DNA from: Gammaproteobacteria bacterium
Lineage (GTDB): Bacteria; Pseudomonadota; Gammaproteobacteria; Chromatiales; Chromatiaceae
DNA length: 64,000 bases
Reading direction: 5' to 3'
NCBI GenBank assembly: GCA_015490795.1
Contig: WFXD01000005.1
Span: forward strand, 4,690 to 68,689
Of the stretch, positions 188 to 46,733 are shown in pieces. Both the position numbers and the translations under genes were made by a program. The first letter of the stretch is position 1, and every line of letters starts with the position of its first letter. The notes below the pieces were generated by a model that searched no databases, had not been told where the DNA came from, and saw only the letters and a list, made by a program, of their open reading frames with translations.

Positions 188-227
188 TTACGCTACCCTC
201 CCGGATATATGTTTATTATGGTGTAAC

Positions 228-257: not shown

Positions 258-273
258 CATTAAGTGTAGCTAA

Positions 274-711: not shown

Positions 712-879
712 AGTTTCCTCCACGGATACTTGATAGTTCGAAGAAGTACAAGTTGGTAGCGGTATTCCCCCGCTGGTTAGTACTATATCCAGCACAAGGC
801 CTTTATGCGGGATAGAGCTTTAGAGCAGCCCAGCCATGGATAGGTTCATATCTTCATAGCTGGGCTGCACATTTTGTGG

Positions 880-1545: not shown

Positions 1546-1589
1546 TCTTCCATCCTCCGTTATCGTATCTATTTAAGAGGCCAGGGGGG

Positions 1590-3941: not shown

Positions 3942-3957
3942 TGTTCTATTCTCCAAA

Positions 3958-30508: not shown

Positions 30509-30671
30509 ATGGTTGTCTGCAAACAGGTTTTATTTTATCCAATGCTTCGGGGCACATTAGGCGGTGTTGAATGTCATACTCTCGAATGGCCGATCTGAAA
30601 CCAGGTGCTATTTGATGTAAACGATTGTATTTAGCGAATTATATACGCAAAATGCAGACTATACTTTATGC

Positions 30672-31178
30672 GTGCTTGTCGGAGGAGTAGTGAGATCTAT
30701 TAAACCAGTGGCCTTGTGGATGGCGGTTTGCCTTTTGTGGTTACAGACGTTGGCTCAGGCAGAGCCGGTCAGATTCAGCGCCGTCGATATCGATGGAAAA
30801 GAGCTCCACCTGAGCGATTACCGTGGCAAGTGGGTGCTGGTGAACTATTGGGCAACCTGGTGTGCGCCCTGTGTAAAAGAGATCCCCGAGCTTGAGGCGT
30901 TTCATAATAAACATAAAGAGAATAAAGCGGTGGTGCTGGGCTTGAACATGGAGAGCATCAAGCTGGATAAGCTGCGCCGTTTTTTAGAGGATAAAAAGGT
31001 TACCTACCCCATTGCTCAAGTGGATATGGCTGTCAATACCCCTTTTGGCATGGTATTTGGAATGCCAACCTCCTTTTTGATCAACCCGAAAGGTGAGGTT
31101 GCTGCCCGGGAGGTCGGTATCCTTTCGGCTGAATCGATTGAGAATTTTATTGAGCGGTCAGAGAGAGAACAGCGTTGA
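30672..31178 (+). CDS. Periplasmic TlpA/ResA-like thiol:disulfide oxidoreductase
   Basis: Signal peptide; WATWCAPCVKEIPEL active site. The start (GTG 30672) is uncertain. Confidence 0.85.
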   Translation: MLVGGVVRSIKPVALWMAVCLLWLQTLAQAEPVRFSAVDIDGKELHLSDYRGKWVLVNYWATWCAPCVKEIPELEAFHNKHKENKAVVLGLNMESIKLDKLRRFLEDKKVTYPIAQVDMAVNTPFGMVFGMPTSFLINPKGEVAAREVGILSAESIENFIERSEREQR

Positions 31179-31207
31179 ATTGGAAACCTGCCTGCGTGCA
31201 CAAATAA

Positions 31208-33004: not shown

Positions 33005-33062
33005 CCATACATATTAGGCTACTGTAACAACAGTTGTGTCTGATGGCAGAGAGGGAGGCTCG

Positions 33063-34766
33063 ATGTCGTTGCGATCCATTAACCGGCTGATCCAGCTTGG
33101 CTACCGTTTTGTCTACCGCTCAAAGGGGCGGTTTTACCTCTATCTGGCTTTTTTTTGCAGTATTCTGGTGGTGCTGGATGCCACCAGCTTCCATCTTGTT
33201 GCAGGCATGCAGCACCGCACCTTCGATATCATGATGAAAAACCGGATCATCTACCCCAAGGCGGACCCGGATATTGTCATCATAGATATCGATGAGGGCA
33301 GCCTGGAGGCGATGGCCGGGGATTACGGCCGCTGGCCCTGGCCCCGGCAGATATTTGCAGAGTTTGTAGAGAATCTGGAGGAGCAGCAGCCCAAGGCCAT
33401 CATCTTCGATATTCTGTTCAGTGACCCCGATGTCTACAACCAGGAGTCAGATGACTATTTCAATGAGGTCGCTGAATCCACAACCAATACCTTCTTTCCG
33501 ATGCTTCGGCTCAACCCCCAAAATGATAACCTCAGCCAGGTCACGCCAGCCATGATACCTGGCATGGGGCGTATCCCCGGCGAGCCACAGCAGGATCGAG
33601 GGCTGGCGGTTATTCTCCCCCATTTTCCGGCAGTGGTGGCAAGTGGGCGGATAGGCACCAACAACATCTACCCGGACAGCGATGGCATTGTGCGCCGGTA
33701 CGCACTCTACCGGCCACACTTTGGGTGGCGTATCCCCTCACTTCCAGCCCGGACGGCAGAGGTGCTTGGCTGGGAGCTGCCGGATGAGCAGGATGTGCTG
33801 CTGAATTGGCGTGGCCGCCTGGGGGCATTCAACACTGTTTGCTTTAGCACCGTGTATGAAGATTTTCTCAGTCGGAAGCGGCAGCGCCCGCAAGACGAGT
33901 TCACGGGTAAAGTGGTCATCATCGGCTCCAGCGCGCCCAGCCTGTTCGATACCAAGCCCACCCCGATGGAGCGTATCCATCCAGGCGTGGAGGTGCTGGC
34001 CACAGCCGTGGATAACCTTAAAAATGGTGATTGGATCACCTCGCTCTCCAGCCCCTGGATTTACGCTACCGTGGCGCTCAGCCTGATCTGGCTGGTGGCG
34101 CTGGCCTTCCTGACCGGCATCAAGCGCACCCTGATTGATGGCGTATTTGCCGGTTCCCAGGTGGGGCTGGTGGCGGTTTCGTATGCCAGCCTGAACCTCT
34201 CCACCTATTTTATCGACCTGACAGCGCCGATAACGGCGGGCTTTGTCTACTTTACGCTGGCGCGGGTCTACGCCTACGCCGAGGTGGCGCTGGCTGAACG
34301 CCGTGTCTGGCTAACCCTGGAAAGCGATGCCAAAGGGTGGCAAAACACCCTGGTGGTCGTCTTGCTTGGAAAGGAGGGTGCGCTATCGGAAAGCAAGGTG
34401 ATTACGGGGTTAAAGCGGCGACTCAACGCCAGAAAAGAGGGCTTTACCATTGAGGCATTTCCTGACAAGCCGGCAGGGATAGGGCGCGCCTATGGTGATC
34501 TGCTGCTGATCTATTATGTTGATAGTGAAGTCAGAGAAAAAACATCGCCAGAACAGATGGCTACAGAGCCGTTTCTGGAGATGATCAAGGAGGAGGCGAC
34601 AGCAGTTTGCGGTGCCATGCCGCCGCTGGGGTATAGCCAGGGCGCCATGCCGTATGGTGATGAGCATGGGCGAATAGAGGTGTGGCGCAGGCTGGTGCAT
34701 CAAGCCATTCACAGCCTGCATTGTGATGAAGGTGGGCGGGTGTTTGATGACAGGGGGGGTAGATAA
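33063..34766 (+). CDS. CHASE2 sensor-domain membrane protein without a recognisable output domain
   Basis: GAGGGAGG upstream of the ATG at 33063. DIVIIDIDEGSLEAMAGDYGRWPWPRQIF...IIFDILFSDPD is the CHASE2 signature. C-terminal TM cluster plus an unassigned cytoplasmic tail of about 170 aa. Confidence 0.85.
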   Translation: MSLRSINRLIQLGYRFVYRSKGRFYLYLAFFCSILVVLDATSFHLVAGMQHRTFDIMMKNRIIYPKADPDIVIIDIDEGSLEAMAGDYGRWPWPRQIFAEFVENLEEQQPKAIIFDILFSDPDVYNQESDDYFNEVAESTTNTFFPMLRLNPQNDNLSQVTPAMIPGMGRIPGEPQQDRGLAVILPHFPAVVASGRIGTNNIYPDSDGIVRRYALYRPHFGWRIPSLPARTAEVLGWELPDEQDVLLNWRGRLGAFNTVCFSTVYEDFLSRKRQRPQDEFTGKVVIIGSSAPSLFDTKPTPMERIHPGVEVLATAVDNLKNGDWITSLSSPWIYATVALSLIWLVALAFLTGIKRTLIDGVFAGSQVGLVAVSYASLNLSTYFIDLTAPITAGFVYFTLARVYAYAEVALAERRVWLTLESDAKGWQNTLVVVLLGKEGALSESKVITGLKRRLNARKEGFTIEAFPDKPAGIGRAYGDLLLIYYVDSEVREKTSPEQMATEPFLEMIKEEATAVCGAMPPLGYSQGAMPYGDEHGRIEVWRRLVHQAIHSLHCDEGGRVFDDRGGR

Positions 34767-35272
34767 TGAGAGTGATTCAATGGTTGATCTGCATCTTTTT
34801 AATGGTTGCTGCCGCACCACTGCTTGCGGAACCGGGGCATATCATTCGCCCCAGTGACCTGATGGATGAACCCTACCGGGATGCGGCCCCGCTGGCTGAG
34901 CTAAAGGCGGGCGACCCTGTAGAGATCATCAAGCGCAAGGGTGGTTGGCTGAAGGTCAAAAGTGCAGGCCGGACGGGTTGGGTCAGGATGTCTAAAATCC
35001 GCAAAGGCAAAGCGACTGCGAAACCGGCCTCAGGCAGTGAGGCAAAGGGGGTGTTGGATCTGGCCAGTGGCCGTTCGGGCACCGGCAATGTGGTTTCAGC
35101 CACCGGGGTAAGAGGGCTGAGCGAAGCAGAGCTGAAAGAGGCAAAATTCAGCGCCAGCGAGGTGGACAAGCTGGAATCCTTTACCGTTTCCGGGCAGCAG
35201 GCAGCCCGCTTTGCGCAAGCAGAAAAGCTGGTTGCAAAAGAGCTTGAATTTATCCCGGCGGCAGAGAGATAG
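34766..35272 (+). CDS. Secreted bacterial SH3-domain protein
   Basis: TAATG overlap with the CHASE2 gene. Signal peptide; LKAGDPVEIIKRKGGWLKVKSAGRTGWVRMS is an SH3b-like fold motif. Confidence 0.7.
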   Translation: MRVIQWLICIFLMVAAAPLLAEPGHIIRPSDLMDEPYRDAAPLAELKAGDPVEIIKRKGGWLKVKSAGRTGWVRMSKIRKGKATAKPASGSEAKGVLDLASGRSGTGNVVSATGVRGLSEAELKEAKFSASEVDKLESFTVSGQQAARFAQAEKLVAKELEFIPAAER

Positions 35273-35282
35273 GAGAGAGGCC

Positions 35283-36356
35283 ATGAGATTTAAACTGCTG
35301 TTAGCCCTGTTGCTGATAACAGGGACACCGCCTGCATACGCCTTTGATTTTGGCGGGTTGATCAAAGAGGCCACAAAGGAGCCTGAGCCGGTTTCGGGCA
35401 AAACCCCGCAGCAGGGCCAGCAGCCGGGTTTGATGGGGCTGTTGGGAGGAACTCCGGTAGAGGAGGAGATCGCCATTGGGCGTGAAATTGCAGGCCGGCT
35501 ACTGGGCGCTGCCCCGCTGGTAGATGACAAGCAGCTGCAACGTTACATCAACCATGTCGGTGCCTGGGTGGCCAGACAGAGTGGCCGCAATGACCTCAAA
35601 TGGTATTTTGGGGTGATTGAGTCTGATGACATCAACGCCTTTGCAGCGCCAGGCGGTTATATTCTGGTCACCAAAGGGCTGTATAAAAGGCTGCGTAACG
35701 AGGCGGAGCTGGCAGGTGTTCTGGCGCATGAGATCGGCCATGTTATCAAGCAACACCACCTGAAGATATTGAAGCAGGGGCAGTTGATTGATATGGGTGG
35801 CAGCCTTCTGAAACAGAAGGTGGGCGGTGGTGGAAAAGGCCAGGCGATTGGCAGGATGATCGGCAGTGGTGCTGAAATTCTGGCGCGGGGCCTGGATAAA
35901 AATGCCGAATATGAGGCGGATCGCATCGGTGTGGTACTGGCTGCAAGAGCAGGATATGACGCCTATGCCCTCCCCTCAGTGCTACAGGAGATCGGCCACC
36001 TGAGCGCGGATGACAACACGGTTTCGCTGCTGTTTAAAACGCATCCACACCCGGAAAAAAGGCTGCTGGAGCTGGGTGATGCCATGGATGCCCATGCCGA
36101 CCGATTCGAAGATGGCAAAATAGTTGCAGACAGATTTTACCGATTGGGGAAGGAGAAAAACCCCAGTGATGCGCGGCTACCCGGCTTTTTGTTGAGCGAT
36201 TTTTTTCAGGTGCCATACAGCGATAGCCATCCATGCGACATTGAGCATCAATGCACCCATTGCGCCCATGAACAGGGTGTTGATGCCAACCAGAAACGCC
36301 CCCGCCAGGTTGTATATATGGTAGGCAGCCGAGGTGTTGGTAAACCTCCCTTTTGA
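35283..36356 (+). CDS. Periplasmic M48-family zinc metallopeptidase
   Basis: Start MRFKLLLALLLITGTPPAYA with GGAGAG upstream. HEIGH zinc motif, EYEADRIG third ligand region. The last 60 codons or so overlap an antisense membrane-protein gene. Confidence 0.85.
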   Translation: MRFKLLLALLLITGTPPAYAFDFGGLIKEATKEPEPVSGKTPQQGQQPGLMGLLGGTPVEEEIAIGREIAGRLLGAAPLVDDKQLQRYINHVGAWVARQSGRNDLKWYFGVIESDDINAFAAPGGYILVTKGLYKRLRNEAELAGVLAHEIGHVIKQHHLKILKQGQLIDMGGSLLKQKVGGGGKGQAIGRMIGSGAEILARGLDKNAEYEADRIGVVLAARAGYDAYALPSVLQEIGHLSADDNTVSLLFKTHPHPEKRLLELGDAMDAHADRFEDGKIVADRFYRLGKEKNPSDARLPGFLLSDFFQVPYSDSHPCDIEHQCTHCAHEQGVDANQKRPRQVVYMVGSRGVGKPPF

Positions 36357-36764: not shown

Positions 36765-36946
36765 TTTTCACGATTCATGTCAGCGGATACAGACCTGTTC
36801 GCCCCTTGTGGAACTTGAGTGGGCTGCTCCAGAAATATTCCCGGTTTGGTGTAGTATACTGCGCGATTAACGGTTTGTATCCGCAGTAGGTACAACTGAT
36901 TTTTTTTAGGTTCATCTGATTAGTGTCCCTGTGGAGGTTATATAGC

Positions 36947-37648
36947 GTGCGTTGGATCAATAGAGGCGTCGTGCTGCTGCTGGGGTTTGTCATCACCACA
37001 GCAAGCTGGGGCCTTGAGTGGAACCAGGAGGGTGGAGAAAAAGAGCGGGCATTGACACTAAAACCCAACTACAACCGCGGGCTGGAGTTCTACCGCATCT
37101 GTGCAAAATGCCACAACAAGCAAGGTTGGGGGCGGCGTGATGGGTCATTTCCACAGATATCGGGTCAGCACTACAATGTCCTGATCAAGCAGCTTGTGGA
37201 TATGCGCGAAAACAACCGCGAAAATCCCTCCATGCAGCACTTTGTGATGCCTGAAGTGCTGGGCGATGCCCAGGCGCTGGCCGATCTCTCCTACTACATC
37301 TCCAAACTGCCCATGACCCCGGCAAACGGAAAGGGGCGGGGCAAGAACCTGGAGCGTGGTCAGGATATCTACATGGAGAAGTGCATTGGCTGTCATGGTG
37401 ACAACGGTGAAGGTGATAATGAGAAATTTTTCCCGCGCATCCATGGGCAGCACTACCGCTATATGCTGCGCCAGTTTAAATGGATAAGGGCCGGGGAGCG
37501 GCTCAATGCACATCCGGATATGCAGATTCGGATCGAGGACTTTACGCTAGAGGACTCCAAGGCAGTGGTTGACTATATTTCACGTCTGAAACCGCCAAAA
37601 GAGATTGTGGCGCCCTCAAGAAAGTGGAGAAACCCTGATTTTGAATAG
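36947..37648 (+). CDS. Dihaem cytochrome c4-type protein
   Basis: GGAGG 9 nt upstream of GTG 36947 (alternative start 36923). CAKCH and CIGCH motifs, each followed by a PxIxGQHY c4-type segment (FPQISGQHY, FPRIHGQHY). Confidence 0.85.
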   Translation: MRWINRGVVLLLGFVITTASWGLEWNQEGGEKERALTLKPNYNRGLEFYRICAKCHNKQGWGRRDGSFPQISGQHYNVLIKQLVDMRENNRENPSMQHFVMPEVLGDAQALADLSYYISKLPMTPANGKGRGKNLERGQDIYMEKCIGCHGDNGEGDNEKFFPRIHGQHYRYMLRQFKWIRAGERLNAHPDMQIRIEDFTLEDSKAVVDYISRLKPPKEIVAPSRKWRNPDFE

Positions 37649-37908: not shown

Positions 37909-39063
37909 ATGAAGACCCAGATTGCCAACTGTTTGAAAATGAGCCTGAAAGCGCTCTCTTTTGCGCTGTTTTTGCCTCTCAATGGTGCCGTGGCAGAGGA
38001 GGCTGCCTGGCCCATGTTCCTGCTCAACCCGCAGCACGATGCCCAGCCTGCCTCCACTCTTGCGCCGCCACTGGAGCTGCTGTGGGAGTTTGACGCAGGC
38101 GATCTGCTCTACGCCTCTCCCGCTGTCGCCTCTGGCAAGGTCTTTATCGGTTCGCTCTCCGGTGCATTCTATGCGGTGGATCAAGAGACAGGCGAGCCAG
38201 TGTGGAGTTTTGAAACCGCTGACGAGATCACATCCTCCGCTGCTGTTGACAATGGCAAGGTCTACTTTGGTGGCAAGGATGGCACCCTCTACTGTCTGGA
38301 TGCCGCCACAGGTGAACTGATCTGGGAGTACAAGACCCAGGGCAAAATCGTCAACTCCCCTGCGCTGGTGGATGGCGTGGTCTACTTTGGCTCGAATGAT
38401 ATGAGCATCTACGCCATTAGCGCAGAAGATGGCGGCTTTATCTGGTCGACCCCTCTGGCTGAAAAACCCACCAGCTCACGAGGCATTTACGCCTCCCCCA
38501 CCATTGGCCACGGGCTGGTCTATGTAACGCGCAAGGCCTTCAAGGTCTATGCGCTGGATATCAGGGATGGACATATCGTATGGGAGTTCAGAACCCGCTC
38601 AGCCAACTATGCCTCGCCTGTGCTCAGCGGTAACACCCTCTACATTGGTGGCTATGATCGCAACCTGTATGCGCTGGATGCCAAGAGCGGAAAAACGAAA
38701 TGGCAGGCCACCGTAGATGAGTGGATCTATGCCTCGCCCATCCCCTTTCAGGATGGCGTACTGGTGAGCGCCAAAGATGGCGTGCTGACCTCATTCGATA
38801 GCGCCACGGGCAAGCTGCGCTGGTCGCAGGATCTGCGCGCCCCCATCAGCTCGACCCCGGCAGTAACCCGAAGCGGCATCGCCTTTGTGGCCAACGAATA
38901 TGGTGAACTGACTGCAATTGACGTGAAAAATGGCCAGCCTGTTTGGCAGGAGACACTGCCCGATGACGGGTTCCACTCCTCCCCGGCCATCGTGGGCGAC
39001 CGACTCTATATTGGCACCATGAATGGCTACCTGATGGCCTGGGAGCAGAGACAGATACCATGA
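37909..39063 (+). CDS. Secreted PQQ-like (BamB-like) beta-propeller repeat protein
   Basis: Signal peptide. Repeats of the type GKVFIGSLSGAFYAVDQETGEPVWSF / GKVYFGGKDGTLYCLDAATGELIWEY / NTLYIGGYDRNLYALDAKSGKTKWQ. Confidence 0.85.
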   Translation: MKTQIANCLKMSLKALSFALFLPLNGAVAEEAAWPMFLLNPQHDAQPASTLAPPLELLWEFDAGDLLYASPAVASGKVFIGSLSGAFYAVDQETGEPVWSFETADEITSSAAVDNGKVYFGGKDGTLYCLDAATGELIWEYKTQGKIVNSPALVDGVVYFGSNDMSIYAISAEDGGFIWSTPLAEKPTSSRGIYASPTIGHGLVYVTRKAFKVYALDIRDGHIVWEFRTRSANYASPVLSGNTLYIGGYDRNLYALDAKSGKTKWQATVDEWIYASPIPFQDGVLVSAKDGVLTSFDSATGKLRWSQDLRAPISSTPAVTRSGIAFVANEYGELTAIDVKNGQPVWQETLPDDGFHSSPAIVGDRLYIGTMNGYLMAWEQRQIP

Positions 39064-40013
39064 ACAGTAGCGTGTTGAGCTTTTTGCTGGGGCTGTTGCT
39101 CACCTTTGGTGCGGCGGCACAGGTAGTGGCCGAAGAGGATCTGAATATGAATCCTCACTGGTCCAAAACCAAAGACAAGTGCCTTGCATGCCACGAACAT
39201 ATTCCAGAGAGAGGCGGCCAGTTAAATCTCCGTTATGACGGCGATATAAACAGGCTCTGCAACCACTGCCACTCCGAGATATCCAAAGACAAGTATATCC
39301 ATGCCAGTGGCATGATTGCCCCGCAGACGATGGTGGACAAGATGCCAGAGGAGTTTCGCTCCGGGCTGGATGATGAGGGCCGCATCACCTGTGCAGTCTG
39401 CCATGACATGACCTACCAGTGCCTCAGTGAAGAGTTCGGGCGCAAAAAAGAGAACATCCTGTTCCACCGGGGGGCACCCTTTGAAAAACGAACCGACCTC
39501 TGTTACAACTGCCATGAGCCCTCTGCATATAAAAAGATGAATCCGCATGACCAGATTAACGATGAGGGAGAGCTGGACACCGACATCTGCACCTACTGCC
39601 ATGCCATCCTGCCTGACCGCCGAAAGGCTAAAAGCATTGCAGATGTTGAATTCAAATTTGATAATTTCGACATGCTCTGTCTACGCTGCCATACAGATGA
39701 TGCCTATGCCGTGGGCTGTGTGATTGGCTATGAAAAAGATGGCAGCCCCAGATACCATGCAGGGCGGCCCGATGAAGGGATGTCGGGCCGGATTGAGGCA
39801 AACCAGGGGGGAGCCATCCTGCCGCTGGATCTTGTCACGGGCAAAATCTTCTGCGGCACCTGTCACAACCCGCATGAGCTTGGGGTGCAGCGGCGCAGCG
39901 AAGCTGATGCGGGCGCCGACTCCCACAAGCGTTTGAGAATCAGCCAGATAAACTCGGGGATCTGCCTTGGCTGCCATGATGCCAAAGAGATCAAACAGTT
40001 CCACCTGCCATAG
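39060..40013 (+). CDS. Octahaem c-type cytochrome, secreted
   Basis: ATGA overlap with the propeller gene. Signal peptide. Eight CXXCH: CLACH, CNHCH, CAVCH, CYNCH, CTYCH, CLRCH, CGTCH, CLGCH. Confidence 0.9.
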   Translation: MNSSVLSFLLGLLLTFGAAAQVVAEEDLNMNPHWSKTKDKCLACHEHIPERGGQLNLRYDGDINRLCNHCHSEISKDKYIHASGMIAPQTMVDKMPEEFRSGLDDEGRITCAVCHDMTYQCLSEEFGRKKENILFHRGAPFEKRTDLCYNCHEPSAYKKMNPHDQINDEGELDTDICTYCHAILPDRRKAKSIADVEFKFDNFDMLCLRCHTDDAYAVGCVIGYEKDGSPRYHAGRPDEGMSGRIEANQGGAILPLDLVTGKIFCGTCHNPHELGVQRRSEADAGADSHKRLRISQINSGICLGCHDAKEIKQFHLP

Positions 40014-40020
40014 ACCGTCC

Positions 40021-40998
40021 ATGATACAGCGTTTTACCGCCCCTCTCCGGCCCTGCTTCCAGCAGAGTGGATGGCTGCTTGTGCTGGCTGCCCTGCTGCT
40101 CCCTGCCCAGCCGATTGCCGCTGCCCCGGATCTGCTCCCTGTCGAGCAGATCCGGGTCATTGAGGGTGGCGACAAACTTGGCCTGCGCCAGCCGAGCAGC
40201 GTACGGATCACCTCAGACAACCGCACCCTGGTGCTGGACGGCGTCTCAAACCGGGTTGTCATCTACAACCACGAAGGAAAATTCCAGGGCAGCTTTGGCA
40301 AAGGTGGCAGCGCAAAAGCGGAGCTCAGCCGCCCGCTGGGGATGACCCTCGATGCCAGGGATCATGTTTATATCGCCGACTCCGGCAATGCCCGTATCCA
40401 GATCTACAGCCCAGATGGCAAACATCTCAACCAGATCAAACTTCCCCAAAGCAAGCAGCAAAAAAGGCCCGACCCCACCGACCTGGCCATCGACAACCAG
40501 CGCCAACTGCTCTACGTGGTCGATAATGAAAACCACCAGGTGCTCGTCTATAGCCTGAAAGAGCGAAAATTCATCCGCACTGTGGGGGGGATGAGCCATC
40601 AGGAAGACGGCTTCCGCTGGCCCTTCTCCCTCTACATCGACGCCACCGGCAGGCTCTACATCGTCGATGTCATCAACACCCGGGTGCGCACCATCCTGCC
40701 TGAAAAGGGGTTTGGGTTTGGCCATGATATTGGCCGCTGGGGGGTCGAGAAGGGTGAGCTGTTCCGCCCCAAAGGGGTGGCAGTCGATGCCAGTGGGCAT
40801 ATCTTTATTAGCGACTCCTACCTCGGCGTCATCCAGATGTTCGACAAAAAAGGGAGATTCCAGGCCGTGCTCAGCGATGGTCAGGGCAAGATAAAGCACT
40901 TTACCACCCCGGCCCGGCTCTATTTTGACAACAACGGCCTCCTCTATGTGGTGGAGATGTTCGCCAACCGTATCAGCGTCTACCGTATCAAATCATGA
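40021..40998 (+). CDS. Secreted NHL-repeat six-bladed beta-propeller protein
   Basis: Signal peptide LLVLAALLLPAQPIAAAP. NHL-like blades (LSRPLGMTLDARDHVYIADSGNARIQIYSPDGK, FRPKGVAVDASGHIFISDSYLGVIQMFDKKG, and others). Confidence 0.85.
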   Translation: MIQRFTAPLRPCFQQSGWLLVLAALLLPAQPIAAAPDLLPVEQIRVIEGGDKLGLRQPSSVRITSDNRTLVLDGVSNRVVIYNHEGKFQGSFGKGGSAKAELSRPLGMTLDARDHVYIADSGNARIQIYSPDGKHLNQIKLPQSKQQKRPDPTDLAIDNQRQLLYVVDNENHQVLVYSLKERKFIRTVGGMSHQEDGFRWPFSLYIDATGRLYIVDVINTRVRTILPEKGFGFGHDIGRWGVEKGELFRPKGVAVDASGHIFISDSYLGVIQMFDKKGRFQAVLSDGQGKIKHFTTPARLYFDNNGLLYVVEMFANRISVYRIKS

Positions 40999-43900
40999 AG
41001 CAGTTGAGACTGGTTGGGCTTTTCCTGTTGCTGCCCCTGCTTTTGGCATCCACAGCAGCTGTTGCGGCCCCTTCAGGCCAGCAGCCCAATGCCTCGAAAG
41101 AGTGCGCCATGTGCCACCTGCGCTGGGTCGATGATTTTGATGGCAGCCATGCCGCAAACTACCTGCTCGATTTTACTGAAGAGAAGGTCGTAGCCACAGA
41201 GATGATGTGCTACAGCTGCCATGACGGCTCGATCGTGGACTCCCGCTTGCGGGTGTGGGAGACCAGCCGGCACAAGGCAGGGACAGACCCATCCAGCAAA
41301 ATCACGATTCCCGAGACCTTTCCGCTTGATCCACAAGGGCGGCTGACCTGTGCAACCTGCCATAGCGCACACGGTGTCGACTCAACGACCGACATCGGAT
41401 CGACCATCTTTTTGCGAGTGCCCAATGTCAACTCATCCATGTGCCGCCAGTGTCACAGTGACAAGGATGACGGCGTGGCAGCGGGCAAGCATCCGGTCGA
41501 TATCGTTTTTGATGAATTCCCACAAAAGATCCTCGATTTTGGCGGCAAGGCGGGCAAAGACAAGAGCGGCAAAAAGAGGACGGTTATCTGTGAAAGTTGT
41601 CACAATCCGCATGGCAGCACCAACGACCACTTTCTGGTAATCCCGAACAGCCAGAAGGGGGTAACCCACTCCAGCCTGTGTGAAACCTGTCACGGCGTCT
41701 CGCCGGATATTAAAAGTGCGGATGAGCTGCGGCGGTTTTCGCACCCGGTGGATGTGGATATTATCAAAGAGGTCAAACTGCCAGAGAGGTGGGATAACGG
41801 CGAAAGACCACTGCTGGCCGAAGGCCGGGTGATTAACTGCCGCACCTGTCACTCACCGCACAACGGCACGCGGGATAACCACCTGCTGGTGTCGAGCAAC
41901 AAACAGAGCAAACTCTGCCTGACCTGTCATACCTCGAAGAAAAAGCTGCTGAACACCAAACATGACCTGTCGACCAGCTTCCCCGATGAGAGGAACTCGG
42001 CAGGCCGGAGCGCAGCCGAGGCCGGCCCCTGCTTCTCCTGCCATTTTATGCACAAAGGAGAGGGGCCAAAGATGTGGGCGCGGGATATCGAGGGCGAAAG
42101 CATTGAGGATCTGTGCAAAAGCTGCCACGACAAAGAGAGGGTCGCAGAGCATGCCCTGACCGGCGCGCGCAGCCATCCGGTGGAGGTGCCCCCTTCCAGA
42201 AATATGGATGTGGGCAATCTGCCGCTCTATAGCGAACAGGGAGAGAGGCGCGCCGATGGTAACGTGACCTGCGCCTCCTGTCACGATCCTCATGTCTGGT
42301 CGGCATTGTCGGACGACCGGGGAGACAAAGGGGTAGAGGGCGACGGCACAAACAGCTTTCTGCGCCAGACGGCCGCACCACCCAGCGGTAGCCTCTGCCA
42401 AAGCTGTCACCGGGACAAAAAGCGCATCGCAAAAACCAAGCATGATCTGAATGTTACAGCGCCGAACGAAAAAAATGCCAGGCAGCAGACGCCAAAAGAG
42501 TCCGGGGTCTGTGGTGCATGCCATACAGCACATAACGCCAAGGCGGGCAAGCTCTGGAACAGGCCGCTGGGTGCAGGCGAGGATTATATCGAGCGCCTCT
42601 GCACCTCATGCCATGCCAAAGCGGGCATGGCCGCAGACAAGACAACGGGCAAGAGAAGCCACCCTGTTGGGGTCAAGCCAAAAGAGAGTGGCGACCTGCC
42701 GCTGTTTACGGCAGATGGGAGAAAGAGCGCCCGGGGCAATCTCTCTTGTGGCACCTGCCATGACCCTCATCGGTGGGCTGCGGGCAGTGATGAGCGTGGT
42801 GACAGCAAGGCAGAGGGTGATGGCAGCAACAGCTTCCTGAGAAAAACCAGCTCGGTCGAGAGCGAGCTCTGCCGCACCTGCCATGCCGAGAAATCGACCC
42901 TGCTGGGCAGCAAGCATGATATGCACGTCACCTTCCCCAAGGCCCGCAACAATCAGGCTCAAACCATTGGGCAGAGTGGCGTCTGCGGCATCTGCCATGT
43001 GCCACACAATGCAGATGGCAAACGGCTCTGGGCGCTGCGGCCACACAAGGTGGAAGACCCCTACGAAACATTGTGTCTCTCATGCCATGCAAAAGGCGGA
43101 ATGGCTGAAAAGAAGACGACAGGCTCCATTACCCATCCGCTGGGCAAGCAGCCCAATATGCAGCCACAGTTCCGAGGCAAGCTGCCGCTGTTTGACAAAG
43201 AGGGCAAACGGGATGACGAGGCGGGCACGGTCTCTTGCCCCACCTGCCACAACGTACACCAATGGGACCCCCGGGTTACCGAAGAGCAGACATCTCGCGG
43301 CAAAGGGCGGGAAGGCGACCGTAACAACAGCTTCCTGCGGGTCCCCTATGATGAAGATGCCACCCTCTGTGCAGCCTGCCATAAAGATAATGCACTGGTT
43401 ATTGATACAGACCATGATTTGCGTATCACCTCCCCGAACACTGTCAACCTGAGTCACGAAACAGTGGACGATGCAGGTGTCTGTAGCGCCTGCCACCTGG
43501 TGCACAATGCATGGGGTAACCTCCTGTGGGCACGAGGGGTTGGTGTGGGCAGCAGCCGGAATCAGGCGTTATGCACAGGCTGTCATGCCCGGCGTAAATC
43601 AGCGAGCAGAAAGGTGATCGGTGAGCCGACCCACCCCATGAAACGGATCGCAGATGCGCGGCCCACACTGCGCAAGGAGGCGCGCAGATTCTACAGAAAA
43701 AAACGTGGAGAAGAGGCAGCGCCAAAGGATGAAGCGGTGAAGCTGCCGCTCTTCACAAAAAATGGCGAGCAGTCAACAAATGGCGATATGGCCTGCTCAA
43801 CCTGTCACAACGTACACCGTTGGGATCCTGAAAAGCCAGAGAGAGGGCCAGGCAAAAAAACAGAAGGTGATGCAGGCAACAGCTTTCTGCGCAAATCCAA

Positions 43901-44672
43901 CCTGGATGGCCCAAAGCTGTGCGTGACCTGCCATGCCAGCAAGGGCTATGTTGTGGGCACAGATCATGACCTCTCCATAACCAACCCCGACGCCAAAAAC
44001 GGCCTGAACAAGACTGTAGCAGAGAGTGGCGTCTGTAGTCCGTGCCATGTCCCGCATGGTGCGAAAGGTGAGGGCTATCTGCTATGGGCAAGAGAAGAGG
44101 GGGAGGGGAGCAATCTGCATCAGGAACGGATCTGCCTGAGTTGCCATGAAAAAGGCGGGCCGGGAGAGAAGAAGATCGTTGAGCACTTTTCTCATCCGCA
44201 ATCAATAATAGTTCCAGAGCTGCACCGTCCGGGCAGCAGCAAATATGCGCCGGTTTACAATGTAGCGGGGCAAAAGGTAAATGCGGGGCTGATTGCATGC
44301 CCAACCTGCCACAACCCGCACCAATGGACCTCAAGCAGAAAGAGCACGGGCCCGGGGAAAGAGGTGGAAGGCAACAACAGAAACAGCTTTCTGCGGTTTA
44401 AAAGCTCAGGAAATATCTGTAGAAATTGCCACGGTATCGACAGCTTGCAGCGCTATAAATATTTTCACATGGATGATATCAGAGCCTCAGACCGAGCCGC
44501 CCGGGGCAGAGCGTCGGCAGGCGCGGCAACCAAACCGCCAGCAAAAGAGAGCCTGCCGGCAAGCAGGCCTGTGATGCAGGGGAGGGGCGAGCGCAGAGCC
44601 CCCAGCATGTCAGAGCGCCGTCGGGCGCTTATGGAGCGACGTTATCAAAAAGAGATGGGCACAGATCCTTAG
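40995..44672 (+). CDS. Giant secreted multihaem c-type cytochrome (28 CXXCH motifs, 1225 aa)
   Basis: ATGA overlap with the NHL gene. Signal peptide. I counted 28 CXXCH: 7 N-terminal, five tandem 4-haem modules each ending EGDxxNSFLR, and 1 more. Basic, apparently disordered C-terminal tail. Confidence 0.9.
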   Translation: MKQLRLVGLFLLLPLLLASTAAVAAPSGQQPNASKECAMCHLRWVDDFDGSHAANYLLDFTEEKVVATEMMCYSCHDGSIVDSRLRVWETSRHKAGTDPSSKITIPETFPLDPQGRLTCATCHSAHGVDSTTDIGSTIFLRVPNVNSSMCRQCHSDKDDGVAAGKHPVDIVFDEFPQKILDFGGKAGKDKSGKKRTVICESCHNPHGSTNDHFLVIPNSQKGVTHSSLCETCHGVSPDIKSADELRRFSHPVDVDIIKEVKLPERWDNGERPLLAEGRVINCRTCHSPHNGTRDNHLLVSSNKQSKLCLTCHTSKKKLLNTKHDLSTSFPDERNSAGRSAAEAGPCFSCHFMHKGEGPKMWARDIEGESIEDLCKSCHDKERVAEHALTGARSHPVEVPPSRNMDVGNLPLYSEQGERRADGNVTCASCHDPHVWSALSDDRGDKGVEGDGTNSFLRQTAAPPSGSLCQSCHRDKKRIAKTKHDLNVTAPNEKNARQQTPKESGVCGACHTAHNAKAGKLWNRPLGAGEDYIERLCTSCHAKAGMAADKTTGKRSHPVGVKPKESGDLPLFTADGRKSARGNLSCGTCHDPHRWAAGSDERGDSKAEGDGSNSFLRKTSSVESELCRTCHAEKSTLLGSKHDMHVTFPKARNNQAQTIGQSGVCGICHVPHNADGKRLWALRPHKVEDPYETLCLSCHAKGGMAEKKTTGSITHPLGKQPNMQPQFRGKLPLFDKEGKRDDEAGTVSCPTCHNVHQWDPRVTEEQTSRGKGREGDRNNSFLRVPYDEDATLCAACHKDNALVIDTDHDLRITSPNTVNLSHETVDDAGVCSACHLVHNAWGNLLWARGVGVGSSRNQALCTGCHARRKSASRKVIGEPTHPMKRIADARPTLRKEARRFYRKKRGEEAAPKDEAVKLPLFTKNGEQSTNGDMACSTCHNVHRWDPEKPERGPGKKTEGDAGNSFLRKSNLDGPKLCVTCHASKGYVVGTDHDLSITNPDAKNGLNKTVAESGVCSPCHVPHGAKGEGYLLWAREEGEGSNLHQERICLSCHEKGGPGEKKIVEHFSHPQSIIVPELHRPGSSKYAPVYNVAGQKVNAGLIACPTCHNPHQWTSSRKSTGPGKEVEGNNRNSFLRFKSSGNICRNCHGIDSLQRYKYFHMDDIRASDRAARGRASAGAATKPPAKESLPASRPVMQGRGERRAPSMSERRRALMERRYQKEMGTDP

Positions 44673-44774: not shown

Positions 44775-46733
44775 ATGCCTGATCATATCCCAGCCATTGA
44801 GGTGATCCAGGGGCCATCGGTTACCGCAGCCCCTCAGCGCAGCCTGCATGGGCGCAGGTCGCGGCGCCTCTGGGTATTCCTGATCGTATTTCTCCTGTGT
44901 GCCGCCGCCGGGCTGTTTTATACCTACTCCCGGCCTGCGGTCTATCGTACTACAGCCGCCCTGTTAACGGTCGCCATGCCAGCGGTGGACCAGCAGGGCG
45001 CAGCAGCAGACATCCAGCATGTCGCTATCCAGAGCCAGCTTTTGCTGGGCCAGCCCCTGTTGCAAGAGGTGCTGGAGAGGCTGGAGCAGGGAGGCGGCTT
45101 TCGATATATCAACAGCGTTGCCCAGCTACAGGGGATGCTCTCCGTTGAGCCGCTTAGCGATACCAATATTGTCAATTTGAGTGCCGAAGGGCCGATCCCG
45201 GAGGCGCTGCCCGCCGTGGTAAACACCTGGGTGAATGTCTATCTCGAAATGCGCGCCCGGAAGATCAAAGAGGCCACCGGCACAACGACCCAGGCCCTGA
45301 AGGAGCAGCATCAGGCCCTTGCGGCCAAGGTTGAGACCAAGCGCGCCGAACTGGACAGGTTCCGTCAGGAGCACGACATCCTAAGCATGGGGCGCGATGA
45401 AAACCAGGTTCTTGCCCGGCTGAAGGGGCTGACCCAGGCGCTCAACGCCGCCAGTGAAGAGGAGGTAAAGGCAAAGGCGGCGCTGGAGACCATTCATAAA
45501 GCCATCGCCAAGGGCAAACCTGTGGTTCCCAGAGATGAGCAGAGAAGCCTGGCGGCGCTGGAGTCCCGCGCCCAGTTGCTCAAAGAGAAGCTGACGGCGC
45601 TGCAACGCCGTTATACCGACGCCTTTATCGCTATCGACCCCAATCTCAAGACCATTCCCAAACAGCTGAAGGAGATTCAACAGGAGATCAAAACGAAGGT
45701 TGAATATGGCCGGAAGACGGTGCTGGCCGATGTGGAGCAGAAATGGGCGATTGCACGGCAATCGGTAGCAGAGTTGCAGGCCCAGCTGAAGGGGCATAAA
45801 AGCAAGGCAACCCTCTTTACCGCGCGTTTTGCCGAACATGAGGCGCTACAGGAGGATCTGGCCCGCCTGGAAGAGCTCTACCGCACCACCGAGGAGCGCT
45901 TGGTGGCGATCGAGGTGCAGAATCGGCAGAAGTTCCCGCAGGTCAATATACTGGAGTATGCCCAGCTGCCTGCTCACCCGGTGCGGCCGCAATATACGCG
46001 TGATGCTGCTATCGCCCTGGTGGCATCGCTGCTGACAGCGCTGTTTGCCGTCTGGCTGGTCGAGTTTCTTTTGCGCAAGGAGAGAAGGGATGAACCCCAG
46101 ACCCTGGCAGGCCTGCACCTCTACACCGGGCAGCAGCGACCAGCCATAGACCCACCGGCTCCAGTCGCCGCCATCAATGGGCAAGCGCATACTGCACTGC
46201 CACAGCCGGCAGGCACAGAGCTGGATATGGAGGAGATCCGGCAGCTGTTCGAGCAATCAGACACCATTGGACAACAGCTGATTGCACTGCTGCTGAGCGG
46301 ACTGACCCTGGAAGAGGTGGCCAGGATAGAGCGATGCTGTTTCGACTTCAAAGAGAGCAGGCTTCGGGTGCCTGGATATCAGGAGCGGGCCATCACCCTG
46401 GCGCCATCGGTTTTGAAGCTCTTTGCCGAAATTGAACCTGCCCCTGCCAATGAAGAGCTGGAAATCGCGACAACCTCCACAGCGGAGCTAGTGGCAAAAA
46501 TCACACTGGTGGCGGTAGATGCCGGACTCAGCGAACCGGAACGGATAAATGCTCAATCCCTCCGGCACAGCTATCTCACCTATCTGGTGCGGCAGGGGAT
46601 AAAGTTGTCTGAAGTGAACAAAGTTGTGGGTGGCATATCAGCAACGCAGCTTGCCGCCTATGCACAGCTGTCGCCGGATGGCCCCGGCAAACCCCTGGAA
46701 GAGATCGACCTCGTCTACCCGTTGTTCAGATGA
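44775..46733 (+). CDS. Polysaccharide co-polymerase (Wzz/GumC-like) membrane protein fused to a degenerate tyrosine-recombinase-like C-terminal domain
   Basis: TM1 LWVFLIVFLLCAAAGLF, a long periplasmic coiled-coil region, then TM2 AAIALVASLLTALFAVWLVEFLL. Cytoplasmic tail has LLLSGLTLEEV...RAITLAP...SLRHSYLTYLVRQGIKLSEVNKVVGGISATQLAAYAQL. Confidence 0.7.
   Translation: MPDHIPAIEVIQGPSVTAAPQRSLHGRRSRRLWVFLIVFLLCAAAGLFYTYSRPAVYRTTAALLTVAMPAVDQQGAAADIQHVAIQSQLLLGQPLLQEVLERLEQGGGFRYINSVAQLQGMLSVEPLSDTNIVNLSAEGPIPEALPAVVNTWVNVYLEMRARKIKEATGTTTQALKEQHQALAAKVETKRAELDRFRQEHDILSMGRDENQVLARLKGLTQALNAASEEEVKAKAALETIHKAIAKGKPVVPRDEQRSLAALESRAQLLKEKLTALQRRYTDAFIAIDPNLKTIPKQLKEIQQEIKTKVEYGRKTVLADVEQKWAIARQSVAELQAQLKGHKSKATLFTARFAEHEALQEDLARLEELYRTTEERLVAIEVQNRQKFPQVNILEYAQLPAHPVRPQYTRDAAIALVASLLTALFAVWLVEFLLRKERRDEPQTLAGLHLYTGQQRPAIDPPAPVAAINGQAHTALPQPAGTELDMEEIRQLFEQSDTIGQQLIALLLSGLTLEEVARIERCCFDFKESRLRVPGYQERAITLAPSVLKLFAEIEPAPANEELEIATTSTAELVAKITLVAVDAGLSEPERINAQSLRHSYLTYLVRQGIKLSEVNKVVGGISATQLAAYAQLSPDGPGKPLEEIDLVYPLFR

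What the first reader, a model, noticed from the sequence alone, without database searches (positions are those of the whole stretch)
41910..44430. The 28-haem cytochrome is built from five tandem copies of a 4-haem module of about 160-180 aa
Seen in sequence: from about residue 305 the protein repeats one pattern five times. The pattern is LCxxCH ... (T)KHD(L/M) ... GVCxxCHxxH ... LW ... LCxSCH ... (S/T)HP ... LPL(F/Y) ... G..xCxxCH(D/N)xHxW ... EGDxxNSFLR. The NSFLR-encoding DNA recurs at about 42349, 42824, 43323, 43875 and 44379, a spacing of roughly 475-550 nt. The DNA copies are diverged, so this is an old duplication and not a recent repeat. Seven further CXXCH motifs precede the array and one follows it. 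The C-terminal 60 aa or so are Arg-rich and look disordered. Inference: a modular haem wire whose length is set by module number.
Basis: seen in the sequence. Interest (0 to 1): 0.65.

Follow-up and report, generated by a model that had tools for sequence, protein, structure and literature searches.

The report
Seven fused OmcE-like haem units
This 1225-residue, 28-haem cytochrome is a single chain of seven four-haem units, each distantly related to the OmcE "nanowire" subunit that normally polymerises, so it looks like a protein wire whose length is fixed by the gene instead of by polymerisation.

Summary
ORF 40995-44672 encodes 1225 aa with exactly 28 CXXCH, and NSFLR recurs five times at the stated places. 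The five modules are 32-45% identical. Each scores 158-188 bits against a profile of the other four, against at most 32 bits for shuffles that keep CXXCH fixed.

The interpretation needs two corrections. First, the repeat runs through the whole protein: two diverged N-terminal copies make seven units. Second, the natural phase is shifted by one haem, so 28 = 7 x 4 with no remainder. That phase is the one of stand-alone OmcE. A profile of the unit finds the two OmcE-type filament entries first in the PDB (E about 1e-9), with all motifs in the same order.

Each unit has four CXXCH plus four invariant extra His. The first unit lacks the linker His, and an invariant C-terminal His appears to cap the last haem.

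Homologues carry 24, 28, 32 or 48 haems, with constant end units and independent internal duplications.

An NHL beta-propeller gene directly precedes the gene in at least 52 of 76 related loci. A cytochrome b module is present in 36 of them but is absent here.

The wire function and the cellular location are inferred, not shown.

The parts
40995..44672 (+). Gene for the 1225-aa, 28-haem cytochrome c. Its start overlaps the stop of the NHL gene (ATGA).
   Evidence: identical protein found in three independent assemblies
40995..41066 (+). Probable Sec signal peptide (aa 1-24, A-V-A before the cut). It is the only hydrophobic stretch, and there is no lipobox Cys.
   Evidence: Read from the sequence plus a hydropathy scan; no signal-peptide predictor was available, so this is inferred.
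41067..41459 (+). Unit 1 (aa 25-155; haems at C37, C72, C119, C150). It is diverged, lacks the KHD His and the CHxxH His, and its first haem has no conserved distal His.
   Evidence: Module profile hit aa 29-131, i-E 1e-8; His conservation
41460..41933 (+). Unit 2 (aa 156-313; haems at C199, C229, C282, C308), diverged.
   Evidence: Module profile hit aa 145-291, i-E 1e-13; orthologous to unit 2 of all homologues compared
41934..42413 (+). Unit 3 (aa 314-473), canonical.
42414..42887 (+). Unit 4 (aa 474-631), canonical. It forms a paralogous pair with unit 5.
   Evidence: tblastn of a stand-alone OmcE homologue aligns over this whole unit
42888..43385 (+). Unit 5 (aa 632-797), canonical. This is the extra unit relative to the 24-haem relatives.
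   Evidence: Units 4 and 5 both match unit 4 of P0009 best, at 56%
43386..43937 (+). Unit 6 (aa 798-981), canonical, with a 20-aa basic insertion before LPLF.
43938..44435 (+). Unit 7 (aa 982-1147), canonical; it ends with the last CXXCH (C1142).
44436..44471 (+). C-terminal cap GIDSLQRYKYFH. His1158 is invariant in 82 of 82 aligned homologues and lies 16 residues after the last haem Cys, where the KHD His of a next unit would lie (+15).
   Evidence: its role as a cap is inferred
44472..44669 (+). Arg-rich tail (aa 1160-1225, 20% Arg). It is found only in the closest relatives, where the block PSMSERRRALMERR is conserved.
40021..40998 (+). NHL-repeat beta-propeller, exported. It is the most conserved neighbour of the giant cytochrome.
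   Evidence: Pfam NHL 93.6 bits; directly upstream in at least 52 of 76 loci; gene aa
39060..40013 (+). 317-aa, 8-haem cytochrome made of two diverged copies of the same unit. Its C-terminus has a similar ...KQFH.
   Evidence: Unit profile hits aa 22-153 and 166-307; conserved in the gammaproteobacterial loci
37909..39063 (+). PQQ/BamB-like beta-propeller. Its stop overlaps the start of the 8-haem gene (ATGA).
   Evidence: Pfam PQQ_2 194 bits; conserved in 14 loci; gene aa; junction
36923..37648 (+). 241-aa class I c-type cytochrome with two CXXCH (CcoP-like). It sits where related operons carry the cytochrome b module. Whether it belongs to the operon is uncertain.
   Evidence: conserved only in the 5 closest loci

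Best explanation
The gene encodes an exported, soluble (no membrane anchor), all-c-type 28-haem protein made of seven head-to-tail copies of one tetrahaem unit.

The unit reads (T)KHD ... CxxCHxxH ... LW ... CxSCH ... (S/T)HP ... LPLF ... CxxCHxxHxW ... NSFLR ... LCxxCH. It is a distant homologue of OmcE, the tetrahaem subunit of Geobacter and Desulfuromonas extracellular cytochrome filaments. Like OmcE, each unit has four CXXCH plus four further invariant His, which implies bis-His haems.

In OmcE filaments one haem of each subunit is completed by a His from the next subunit. Here the subunits are joined covalently. The His that follows each unit's last CXXCH by 15 residues (the KHD His of the next unit) probably plays that role. 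Unit 1, which has no predecessor, lacks this His. After unit 7 an invariant His at +16 (RYKYFH) would cap the chain.

The result would be one continuous haem chain of genetically fixed length. That length is roughly 20-22 nm if the units pack like OmcE subunits (29-31 A rise per subunit). The chain would carry electrons by haem-to-haem hopping. Length in this family changes by duplication or loss of internal units, while the two N-terminal units and the C-terminal unit stay constant.

The protein works with an NHL beta-propeller, probably as an assembly or scaffolding partner. In this lineage it also works with a two-unit 8-haem cytochrome and a second beta-propeller. In most relatives the operon also encodes a cytochrome b plus two small multihaem cytochromes, which suggests electrons enter or leave through the inner-membrane quinone pool. 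This window lacks that module.

Shown here: the repeat architecture, the homology to OmcE, the conserved ligand set, the variation in unit number and the operon conservation. Inferred: the His-swap logic, the wire function, the direction of electron flow and a periplasmic location.
For: Architecture. There are 28 CXXCH. Seven unit hits cover aa 29-1134. Re-phased units give 7 x 4, and Pfam Paired_CXXCH_1 matches in 7 stretches.

Homology to OmcE. A profile of 43 diverse units finds 9yuq_N (E 1.5e-9) and 7tfs_A (E 2.4e-9) as the top PDB hits, followed by OmcS (E 5e-6). 9YUQ is the D. soudanensis OmcE filament. A stand-alone tetrahaem protein from a related locus (L016) matches 7tfs_A over its full length (E 2.9e-26) and shares TKH..CxxCHTPH..LW, CLSCHDG, DHPV, CxSCHDPH, PFLR and LCLMCH with the unit in the same order. 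A profile of five such stand-alone proteins scores 105 bits on the window protein, with its C-terminal part matching once per unit. Shuffles that keep CXXCH fixed give a mean of -28 and a maximum of 14.

Ligands. Twenty-seven non-motif His are invariant (82 of 82 rows, or 8 of 8 where only eight homologues are aligned). This is four per canonical unit. OmcE homologues likewise have four CXXCH and four further haem-ligating His, plus an unsatisfied haem at the subunit interface. OmcS and OmcE haems are ligated by a His from the adjacent subunit.

Unit number. Counts are 24, 28, 32 and 48 haems with the periodic spacing 42/38/30/53. The mapping of units onto the 24-haem relative is 1-2-3-4-4-5-6. 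Unit pairs of 72-73% identity occur in other lineages. Across 1.84 billion representative proteins, 3689 match the unit, with 2-14 matched stretches among the best 150.

Operon. The gene junctions overlap as ATGA. The NHL gene is directly upstream in at least 52 loci across Gammaproteobacteria, Desulfobacterota, Nitrospirota and candidate phyla. A cytochrome b (PF01292) is present in 36 loci.

NHL proteins next to omcS and in omcE clusters have been linked to nanowire expression or assembly.

The full-length AlphaFold2 model is moderately confident (pLDDT 77.8), whereas a single isolated unit is not (55.6). This is consistent with units that depend on their neighbours.
Against: No structure with haems could be computed, so haem spacing, linearity, total length and the proposed His swap are untested.

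Foldseek of the full-length model against the PDB found nothing. The single-unit model was too poor to search with. Similarity to OmcE therefore rests on sequence profiles with fragmentary local alignments: hhalign aligned only the last 39 columns, at 98% probability.

The identity of 7TFS as G. sulfurreducens OmcE comes from my own knowledge. The held texts confirm only 9YUQ.

The window has no cytochrome b module, no stand-alone OmcE and no outer-membrane barrel. Neither end of the proposed conduit is identified here.

Location is unknown. Comparable 27-haem Geobacter proteins are predicted to be extracellular and longer than the periplasm.

Many-haem proteins can also act as electron stores.
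Confidence: 0.62

Rival explanations
1. The protein is a surface-exposed or secreted cytochrome that contacts minerals, electrodes or partner cells directly, like the large Geobacter outer-surface cytochromes. It would not be a periplasmic conduit.
For: G. metallireducens has a 27-haem cytochrome (Gmet_0558, OmcO-like) beside a 4-haem OmcP (grouped with OmcE) and an NHL protein (Gmet_0556). All are needed for Fe(III) oxide reduction. A survey predicts such 27-haem proteins to be extracellular and about 350 A long, against a periplasm of about 170 A. In some related loci a complete OmcE cluster with a barrel-like protein lies next to the giant cytochrome operon.
Against: No porin, secretin or secretion gene is conserved with the gene; only the NHL propeller and, often, an inner-membrane cytochrome b are. 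The window has no barrel homologue. There is no lipoprotein signal. Homology of this protein to OmcO/Gmet_0558 could not be tested because no sequence was at hand.
Confidence: 0.22
2. The protein is mainly an electron store (a periplasmic capacitor) that buffers respiration when acceptors or donors fluctuate. The repeats would simply add capacity.
For: It has 28 haems, 27 of them with a conserved second His ligand, at 44 aa per haem. Storage is one of the two pressures proposed for very haem-rich cytochromes. The window's operon lacks identifiable partners at either end.
Against: The constant head and tail units, the capping His and the strictly colinear OmcE-like units point to a defined linear chain with specific ends. 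Operon linkage to a cytochrome b module in 36 loci suggests throughput. Storage and conduction are not mutually exclusive.
Confidence: 0.12
3. The repeat is an artefact: assembly collapse or expansion of a repetitive region, or a chance resemblance produced by regularly spaced CXXCH motifs.
For: Repeat-rich genes from metagenomes are prone to mis-assembly, and CXXCH-rich proteins give spurious low-complexity matches.
Against: The DNA copies share only 60-82% identity over at most 46 nt. The identical protein occurs in three independent assemblies. Relatives at 80-86% identity have the same 28-haem layout. Shuffles that keep CXXCH fixed score at most 32 bits, against 158-188 for the real modules.
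Confidence: 0.01

Closest known systems
OmcE tetrahaem nanowire subunit (D. soudanensis OmcE filament, PDB 9YUQ; 7TFS, which from my own knowledge is the G. sulfurreducens OmcE filament)
   Same: It is the best PDB match of the unit profile (E about 1e-9). The motif order is the same from TKHD to ...FLR..LCxxCH. It has four CXXCH plus four further conserved His per unit, and beta-propeller genes lie nearby.
   Different: OmcE is a 220-260 aa protein that polymerises non-covalently outside the cell, to open-ended length, next to a large outer-membrane barrel gene. Here seven units are fused in one chain with fixed ends, no barrel gene is nearby, and the units are shorter (about 160 aa).
OmcS hexahaem nanowire (PDB 6EF8)
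   Same: Its N-terminal CxxCHxxH region matches the unit profile (E 5e-6). A haem is ligated by a His from the adjacent subunit. An NHL protein is encoded next to omcS.
   Different: It has six haems per subunit and polymerises. Similarity is limited to one motif region.
GSU1996 dodecahaem 'nanowire' of G. sulfurreducens (four c7-type domains)
   Same: It follows the same principle: one polypeptide built from repeated multihaem modules that form a linear chain (my own knowledge of the structure).
   Different: Its modules are trihaem c7-type, number four, give 12 haems, and are unrelated to OmcE.
27-haem OmcO/Gmet_0558 with 4-haem OmcP/Gmet_0557 and NHL protein Gmet_0556 of Geobacter
   Same: It is a very large cytochrome of similar haem number encoded beside an NHL propeller and an OmcE/P-group tetrahaem cytochrome. 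It is genetically required for Fe(III) oxide reduction in G. metallireducens.
   Different: Sequence relationship to the window protein was not tested. The haem number (27) and the gene order differ, and it has been described as an outer-surface protein.
PCC3 and Uet clusters of iron oxidisers and electroautotrophs
   Same: They encode very haem-rich repetitive cytochromes proposed as envelope-spanning wires. The Uet cluster also has two NHL propellers.
   Different: PCC3 has a porin, a five-helix inner-membrane protein and low-complexity Thr/Ser/Ala/Gly-rich cytochromes. Uet has an undecahaem cytochrome, c7-type trihaems, a cupredoxin and a barrel. None of these is in the window.

Membership tests
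OmcE-type tetrahaem nanowire cytochromes | Four CXXCH plus four further conserved haem-ligating His per subunit | tested here: met
   Per unit, four CXXCH plus H10, H40, H83 and H119 are invariant in 43 diverse units. There are 27 invariant extra His in the whole protein.
OmcE-type tetrahaem nanowire cytochromes | Detectable sequence homology to solved OmcE subunits, colinear over the subunit | tested here: met
   The unit profile scores E 1.5e-9 against 9yuq_N and 2.4e-9 against 7tfs_A. A reverse profile of five stand-alone OmcE homologues scores 105 bits, against at most 14 for shuffles. The alignments are fragmentary but in the same order.
OmcE-type tetrahaem nanowire cytochromes | A stand-alone subunit of about 220-260 aa that polymerises non-covalently into a filament | tested here: not met
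   The protein is 1225 aa with seven fused units. It is therefore not an OmcE orthologue. Polymerisation itself cannot be tested here.
OmcE-type tetrahaem nanowire cytochromes | One haem completed by a His from the next subunit | not testable with these tools
   Only sequence hints are available: the KHD His lies at +15 after each unit's last CXXCH, it is absent from unit 1, and an invariant His1158 lies at +16 after the last haem. A structure with haems is needed.
OmcE-type tetrahaem nanowire cytochromes | Gene cluster with two multihaem cytochromes, two beta-propeller lipoproteins and a large outer-membrane barrel | tested here: inconclusive
   Two beta-propellers and an 8-haem cytochrome are present. 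However, the propellers have no lipobox, and no homologue of the barrel-like protein of L016 is in the window.
OmcE-type tetrahaem nanowire cytochromes | Alternating parallel and T-shaped haem packing, about 30 A rise per four haems | not testable with these tools
   The AlphaFold2 models carry no haems and give no coordinates. Foldseek found no match.
Paired_CXXCH_1 (PF09699 / TIGR01905) domain proteins | Score above the curated cut-off | tested here: met
   Pfam scores 185.9 bits against a cut-off of 20.6, in seven stretches. NCBIfam scores 115.6 against 25.2. This is a motif-level family and says nothing about function.
MtrA/DmsE decahaem and OmcA/MtrC families | NCBIfam score above the curated cut-off | tested here: not met
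   TIGR03508 scores 112 bits against 192, TIGR03507 scores 52 against 209, and NF041028 scores 76 against 325.
PCC3 porin-cytochrome cluster (He et al. 2017) | [quoted passage not shown] | tested here: not met
   The neighbours are two propellers, an 8-haem and a dihaem cytochrome, and a Wzz-like protein. There is no porin or five-helix protein.
Uet cluster of Tenderiales | Undecahaem UetJ, c7-type trihaems, cupredoxin, barrel UetC and two NHL proteins | tested here: not met
   Only the NHL propeller is shared.
GSU1996-type polymers of c7 domains | Repeated trihaem c7-type domains | tested here: inconclusive
   Pfam Cytochrome_C7 matches five stretches (129 bits). However, the repeating unit has four haems, and its best structural relatives by sequence are OmcE-type, not c7-type.

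The most novel reading that the evidence does not exclude
These proteins are single-chain, length-encoded versions of the OmcE nanowire. The inter-subunit His-haem link of the filament is kept, but the subunits are fused, the first unit is 'uncapped' and the last one is capped by a built-in His.

Unit number (about 4 to 12 or more) would be tuned by internal duplication so that the rod bridges a set distance. That distance runs from an inner-membrane cytochrome b/multihaem quinol module across the periplasm, and in some genomes on to an adjacent OmcE filament and its outer-membrane barrel.

The family would also show how polymerising cytochrome nanowires and giant multihaem cytochromes are related by fusion or fission of one tetrahaem unit.
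Probability: 0.3. Interest if true: 0.8.

Novelty: new variant of a known kind. Interest (0 to 1): 0.6.

Why it matters
Cytochrome nanowires are known as open-ended polymers of small subunits. Giant multihaem cytochromes are known mostly as unexplained gene predictions annotated 'cytochrome c3 family protein'. Linking the two makes several questions testable.

- It gives a structural template (OmcE) for a large, widespread and unnamed family. That family has 3689 representative clusters and occurs in Gammaproteobacteria, Desulfobacterota, Nitrospirota and candidate phyla.
- It offers a natural series of the same wire with 5, 6, 7, 8 or 12 units, suited to measuring how conduction scales with length.
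- It predicts which residues terminate a haem chain, an open question for OmcE filaments (the 'stopper' problem).
- It points to the NHL beta-propeller as a general partner of OmcE-type haem arrays.

For the organism, a Sedimenticola/Polarisedimenticola-like marine sediment bacterium, it suggests a capacity for long-distance electron transfer across the cell envelope.

Tried and rejected
- Foldseek of the full-length AlphaFold2 model (pLDDT 77.8) against the PDB gave no meaningful match. Haem-free, loop-rich models seem unsuited to this test.

- A single-unit model built from 43 aligned units reached only pLDDT 55.6, so no fold search was run on it. Haem spacing and rod length could therefore not be measured.

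- hhalign of the unit profile against one stand-alone OmcE homologue aligned only the last 39 columns. HMMER local alignments and a reverse profile were used instead.

- PCC3 (He et al. 2017) and the Uet cluster were considered because of the haem-rich repetitive cytochromes and NHL genes. They were rejected on gene content.

- The D. ferrophilus NHL-cytochrome clusters (12- and 14-haem proteins) were looked at, but no link could be made.

- The Gallionellaceae pangenome paper does not describe this family.

- Homology to Geobacter OmcO/Gmet_0558 (27 haems) could not be tested.

- The 550-aa neighbour with no Pfam match (28853-30508) was checked as a possible porin and rejected. It has no signal peptide and looks cytoplasmic.

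- Promoter and terminator scans gave nothing above the shuffle expectation.

Full report
**1. The observation**

The region lies inside one ORF, 40995..44672 on the + strand, of 1225 aa. The protein has exactly 28 CXXCH and no variant haem motifs. All 56 of its Cys residues are in those motifs.

NSFLR occurs at aa 453, 612, 778, 962 and 1130.

The five modules (aa 297-457, 458-616, 617-782, 783-966, 967-1134) are 32-45% identical in pairs and share 35 invariant columns.

To test whether this is more than evenly spaced haem motifs, I built a profile from four modules and scored the fifth. The real modules score 158-188 bits. Three hundred shuffles per module that keep the Cys and His of every CXXCH in place score 6-9 bits on average and never more than 32.

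At the DNA level the copies share only 60-82% identity over stretches of at most 46 nt, at spacings of 477, 498, 552 and 504 nt. The identical protein is predicted on contigs from three independent assemblies. Relatives at 80-86% identity have the same 28-haem layout. Assembly collapse and frameshift are excluded.

The last 66 residues are 20% Arg, against 6% elsewhere.

**2. The repeat covers the whole protein, in a different phase**

The five-module profile also matches aa 145-291 (i-E 1e-13, nearly full length) and aa 29-131 (i-E 1e-8, covering the last three haems of a module). The haems at the two ends therefore belong to the repeat as well.

If each unit starts just after an LCxxCH and ends with the next one, the protein divides into seven units of four haems with nothing left over: aa 25-155, 156-313, 314-473, 474-631, 632-797, 798-981 and 982-1147. 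Pfam's Paired_CXXCH_1 model spans the last two haems of such a unit and matches seven times.

The haem-to-haem spacing follows a period of about 42, 38, 30 and 53 residues. This period recurs throughout the family.

**3. What the unit is**

No curated family names the protein. NCBIfam gives only the paired-CXXCH domain above its cut-off, and the decahaem families fall well below theirs. The sources that name homologues call them 'cytochrome c3 family protein' or 'hypothetical'.

A profile of the five modules, and then of 43 diverse units taken from homologues, was searched against all PDB sequences. The two best matches are 9yuq_N (E 1.5e-9) and 7tfs_A (E 2.4e-9), followed by OmcS (E 5e-6). 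9YUQ is the OmcE tetrahaem filament of Desulfuromonas soudanensis. 7TFS is, from my own knowledge, the OmcE filament of G. sulfurreducens.

The alignments are local but keep the same order: TKHDLS ... CxFCHTPH ... LW, then CxSCHD, then LPLF ... CxSCHxVH.

A stand-alone 258-aa tetrahaem protein encoded in a related locus (L016) is a clear OmcE homologue, with E 2.9e-26 to 7tfs_A over its full length. LCxxCH' corresponds to the C-terminus of OmcE.

In the reverse direction, a profile of five such stand-alone proteins scores 105 bits on the window protein. Shuffles that keep CXXCH fixed give a mean of -28 and a maximum of 14. The C-terminal part of that profile matches once at the end of each of the seven units.

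The re-phased unit is therefore an OmcE-like tetrahaem unit, and the protein is a covalent heptamer of it. The neighbouring 317-aa, 8-haem cytochrome (39060-40013) consists of two further, diverged copies of the unit.

**4. Ligands and chain ends**

Across 43 diverse units the invariant residues are the four CXXCH, four other His (in KHD, CHxxH, SHP and CHxxHxW), a Pro, and F-L-R. OmcE homologues are likewise described as having four CXXCH and four other haem-ligating His.

In the whole protein, 27 of the 38 non-motif His are fully conserved. They are present in 82 of 82 aligned homologues, or in 8 of 8 in the stretch where only eight homologues are aligned.

The His of KHD lies 15 residues after the first Cys of the preceding unit's last CXXCH. 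Unit 1, which has no preceding unit, lacks this His and also the CHxxH His. After the very last CXXCH an invariant His (RYKYFH, His1158) lies at +16.

In OmcE and OmcS filaments one haem per subunit is ligated by a His from the adjacent subunit. The OmcE interface is described as leaving an unsatisfied haem, so that a chain 'stopper' would need a ninth His.

My reading is that the fused protein keeps this swap in cis and carries its own stopper. This is inferred, not shown. Under this reading exactly one haem has no conserved His partner, and it is a terminal one. On motif grounds it is haem 1 (C37AMCH followed by LRW). This haem is a candidate entry or exit site.

**5. Unit number in relatives**

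Of the 120 best homologues, 65 have 24 CXXCH, 30 have 28, two have 32 and two have 48 or 49. The number of unit hits equals haems divided by 4.

Compared with the nearest 24-haem clade, the units of the window protein map as 1-2-3-4-4-5-6. One internal unit was duplicated, and the two copies are now about 46% identical.

Other lineages gained units elsewhere and more recently. Units 3 and 4 of P0029 are 73% identical, and units 5 and 6 of the 32-haem P0034 are 72% identical. Units 1 and 2 always map to units 1 and 2 of the 24-haem references, and the C-terminal unit usually maps to their last unit.

A search of 1.84 billion representative proteins with the unit profile finds 3689 proteins at E up to 0.001 and 331 at 1e-30, with 2 to 14 matched stretches among the best 150. 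Haem counts in the 141 newly retrieved of those best 150 proteins peak at 20, 24, 18 and 28, although many of them are fragments.

**6. Genomic context**

The closest relatives are in metagenome-assembled genomes labelled Candidatus Polarisedimenticolaceae, Sedimenticola and Gammaproteobacteria. More distant ones are in Desulfobacterota, Nitrospirota, Schekmanbacteria and others.

In the window the order is as follows:
- dihaem class I cytochrome c (36923-37648)
- PQQ/BamB-like beta-propeller (37909-39063)
- 8-haem cytochrome (39060-40013)
- NHL beta-propeller (40021-40998)
- 28-haem cytochrome (40995-44672)

ATGA overlaps occur at two of the junctions.

Across the 76 related loci, the NHL propeller directly precedes the giant cytochrome in at least 52. 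The commonest full operon is a 6-7-haem cytochrome, a cytochrome b (PF01292), a 3-haem cytochrome, sometimes a PQQ propeller plus an 8-haem cytochrome, then the NHL propeller and the giant cytochrome. The cytochrome b is present in 36 loci.

The window and its orthologous locus L001 lack the cytochrome b module. The same MAG as L001 carries a second, 24-haem operon that has it (L014).

In a few loci (L016, L066, L069) a complete OmcE-type cluster lies next to the giant-cytochrome operon. It comprises a stand-alone OmcE homologue, an NHL propeller, a 638-aa protein ending ...RYFGVRF like an outer-membrane barrel, and a PQQ propeller. OmcE clusters are described as two multihaem cytochromes, two beta-propeller lipoproteins, OmcE and a large barrel. 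An NHL protein next to omcS has been linked to OmcS assembly or expression. No barrel, cytochrome b or stand-alone OmcE is present in this window.

**7. Mechanism**

The protein has a Sec-type signal peptide and no other hydrophobic segment. It has 44 residues per haem, and 27 of its 28 haems have a conserved second His ligand.

The best-supported model is an exported rod with one continuous chain of 28 closely packed haems that passes electrons by hopping. If the units pack like OmcE subunits (29-31 A rise), the rod would be about 20-22 nm long. A published prediction for a 27-haem Geobacter protein gives 35 nm. Either length is of the order of, or larger than, the periplasm.

The frequent operon partner, cytochrome b, suggests the inner-membrane quinone pool as one end of the path. 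The other end is unknown here. The direction of electron flow (uptake or export) cannot be told from sequence.

The full-length AlphaFold2 model is moderately confident (pLDDT 77.8, pTM 0.63). An isolated unit is not (pLDDT 55.6). This fits units that depend on their neighbours and on haems. No geometry could be extracted, and Foldseek gave nothing.

**8. Comparison and novelty**

In terms of how it works, the protein resembles an OmcE or OmcS nanowire and the modular GSU1996. In terms of membership, it is a remote homologue of OmcE at the unit level, but it fails the defining property of being a small polymerising subunit. It is best filed as a new variant of that kind.

Haem-rich repetitive cytochromes proposed as wires are already known in general terms: PCC3, Uet, and the Desulfuromonadia survey with its 27-haem 'nanowire per polypeptide'. 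In the held literature I found no description of giant cytochromes as concatenated OmcE-type units, nor of the capping logic. The library is incomplete, so this is no proof of absence.

Geobacter OmcO/Gmet_0558 has 27 haems, lies next to the OmcE-group OmcP and an NHL protein, and is required for Fe(III) oxide reduction. It may belong to the same family, which would give the family a phenotype. I could not test this.

**9. Verdict**

The function as a fixed-length electron conduit is plausible but untested. Interest is moderate to high for people working on extracellular electron transfer.

Noticed in passing
window 44775-46733 (+): This 652-aa protein combines a Wzz/PEP-CTERM chain-length-determinant-like N-terminal part (TIGR03007, 82 bits, below cut-off) with a weak tyrosine-recombinase-like C-terminal part (PF00589, aa 483-632). 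It is conserved at 84% in L001. It is an unusual fusion directly downstream of the cytochrome gene.
   Followed up: partly
window 880-3986 (-): A five-haem NapC/NirT-type cytochrome (880-1545) lies next to a TAT-exported molybdopterin oxidoreductase (1590-3986). This is a separate respiratory module.
   Followed up: partly
window 28853-36356: This block comprises a 550-aa protein with no Pfam match (minus strand), a thioredoxin-like protein, an MshE-type ATPase with the MshEN domain, a CHASE2 protein, an SH3 protein and an M48 peptidase. It is conserved upstream only in the closest relatives (L001, L003, L005), so it is probably not part of the cytochrome system.
   Followed up: partly
L016 15905-21532 (also L066, L069): A complete OmcE-type cluster lies next to the giant-cytochrome operon in some relatives. 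It has a stand-alone OmcE homologue (E 2.9e-26 to 7tfs_A), an NHL propeller, a 638-aa protein with an outer-membrane-barrel-like C-terminus (...RYFGVRF) and a PQQ-like propeller.
   Followed up: partly
L014 7124-14816 (same MAG as L001): The closest related genome carries a second, paralogous operon with a 24-haem cytochrome. This operon includes the 6-haem, cytochrome b and 3-haem module that the 28-haem operon lacks.
   Followed up: partly
window 41103-41117 (aa 37-41, first CXXCH): The first haem is the only one without a conserved second His: 27 invariant extra His serve 28 haems. A nearly invariant Trp and a conserved ExMCYSCH Met lie nearby, so this terminal haem may have a different ligand or an open site.
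   Followed up: partly
window 44472-44669 (aa 1160-1225): The Arg-rich tail is present only in the four closest relatives and contains a conserved block, PSMSERRRALMERR(H/Y)QKE. Other family members stop 26-38 residues after the last CXXCH. Its role is unknown.
   Followed up: partly
L049 and L059 (Gammaproteobacteria / Thioalkalispiraceae), about 1-4600: Upstream of their 18-haem operons lie a barrel-family protein (about 600 aa), an NHL propeller and an 11-haem cytochrome. This is reminiscent of the Uet cluster of Tenderiales.
   Followed up: no
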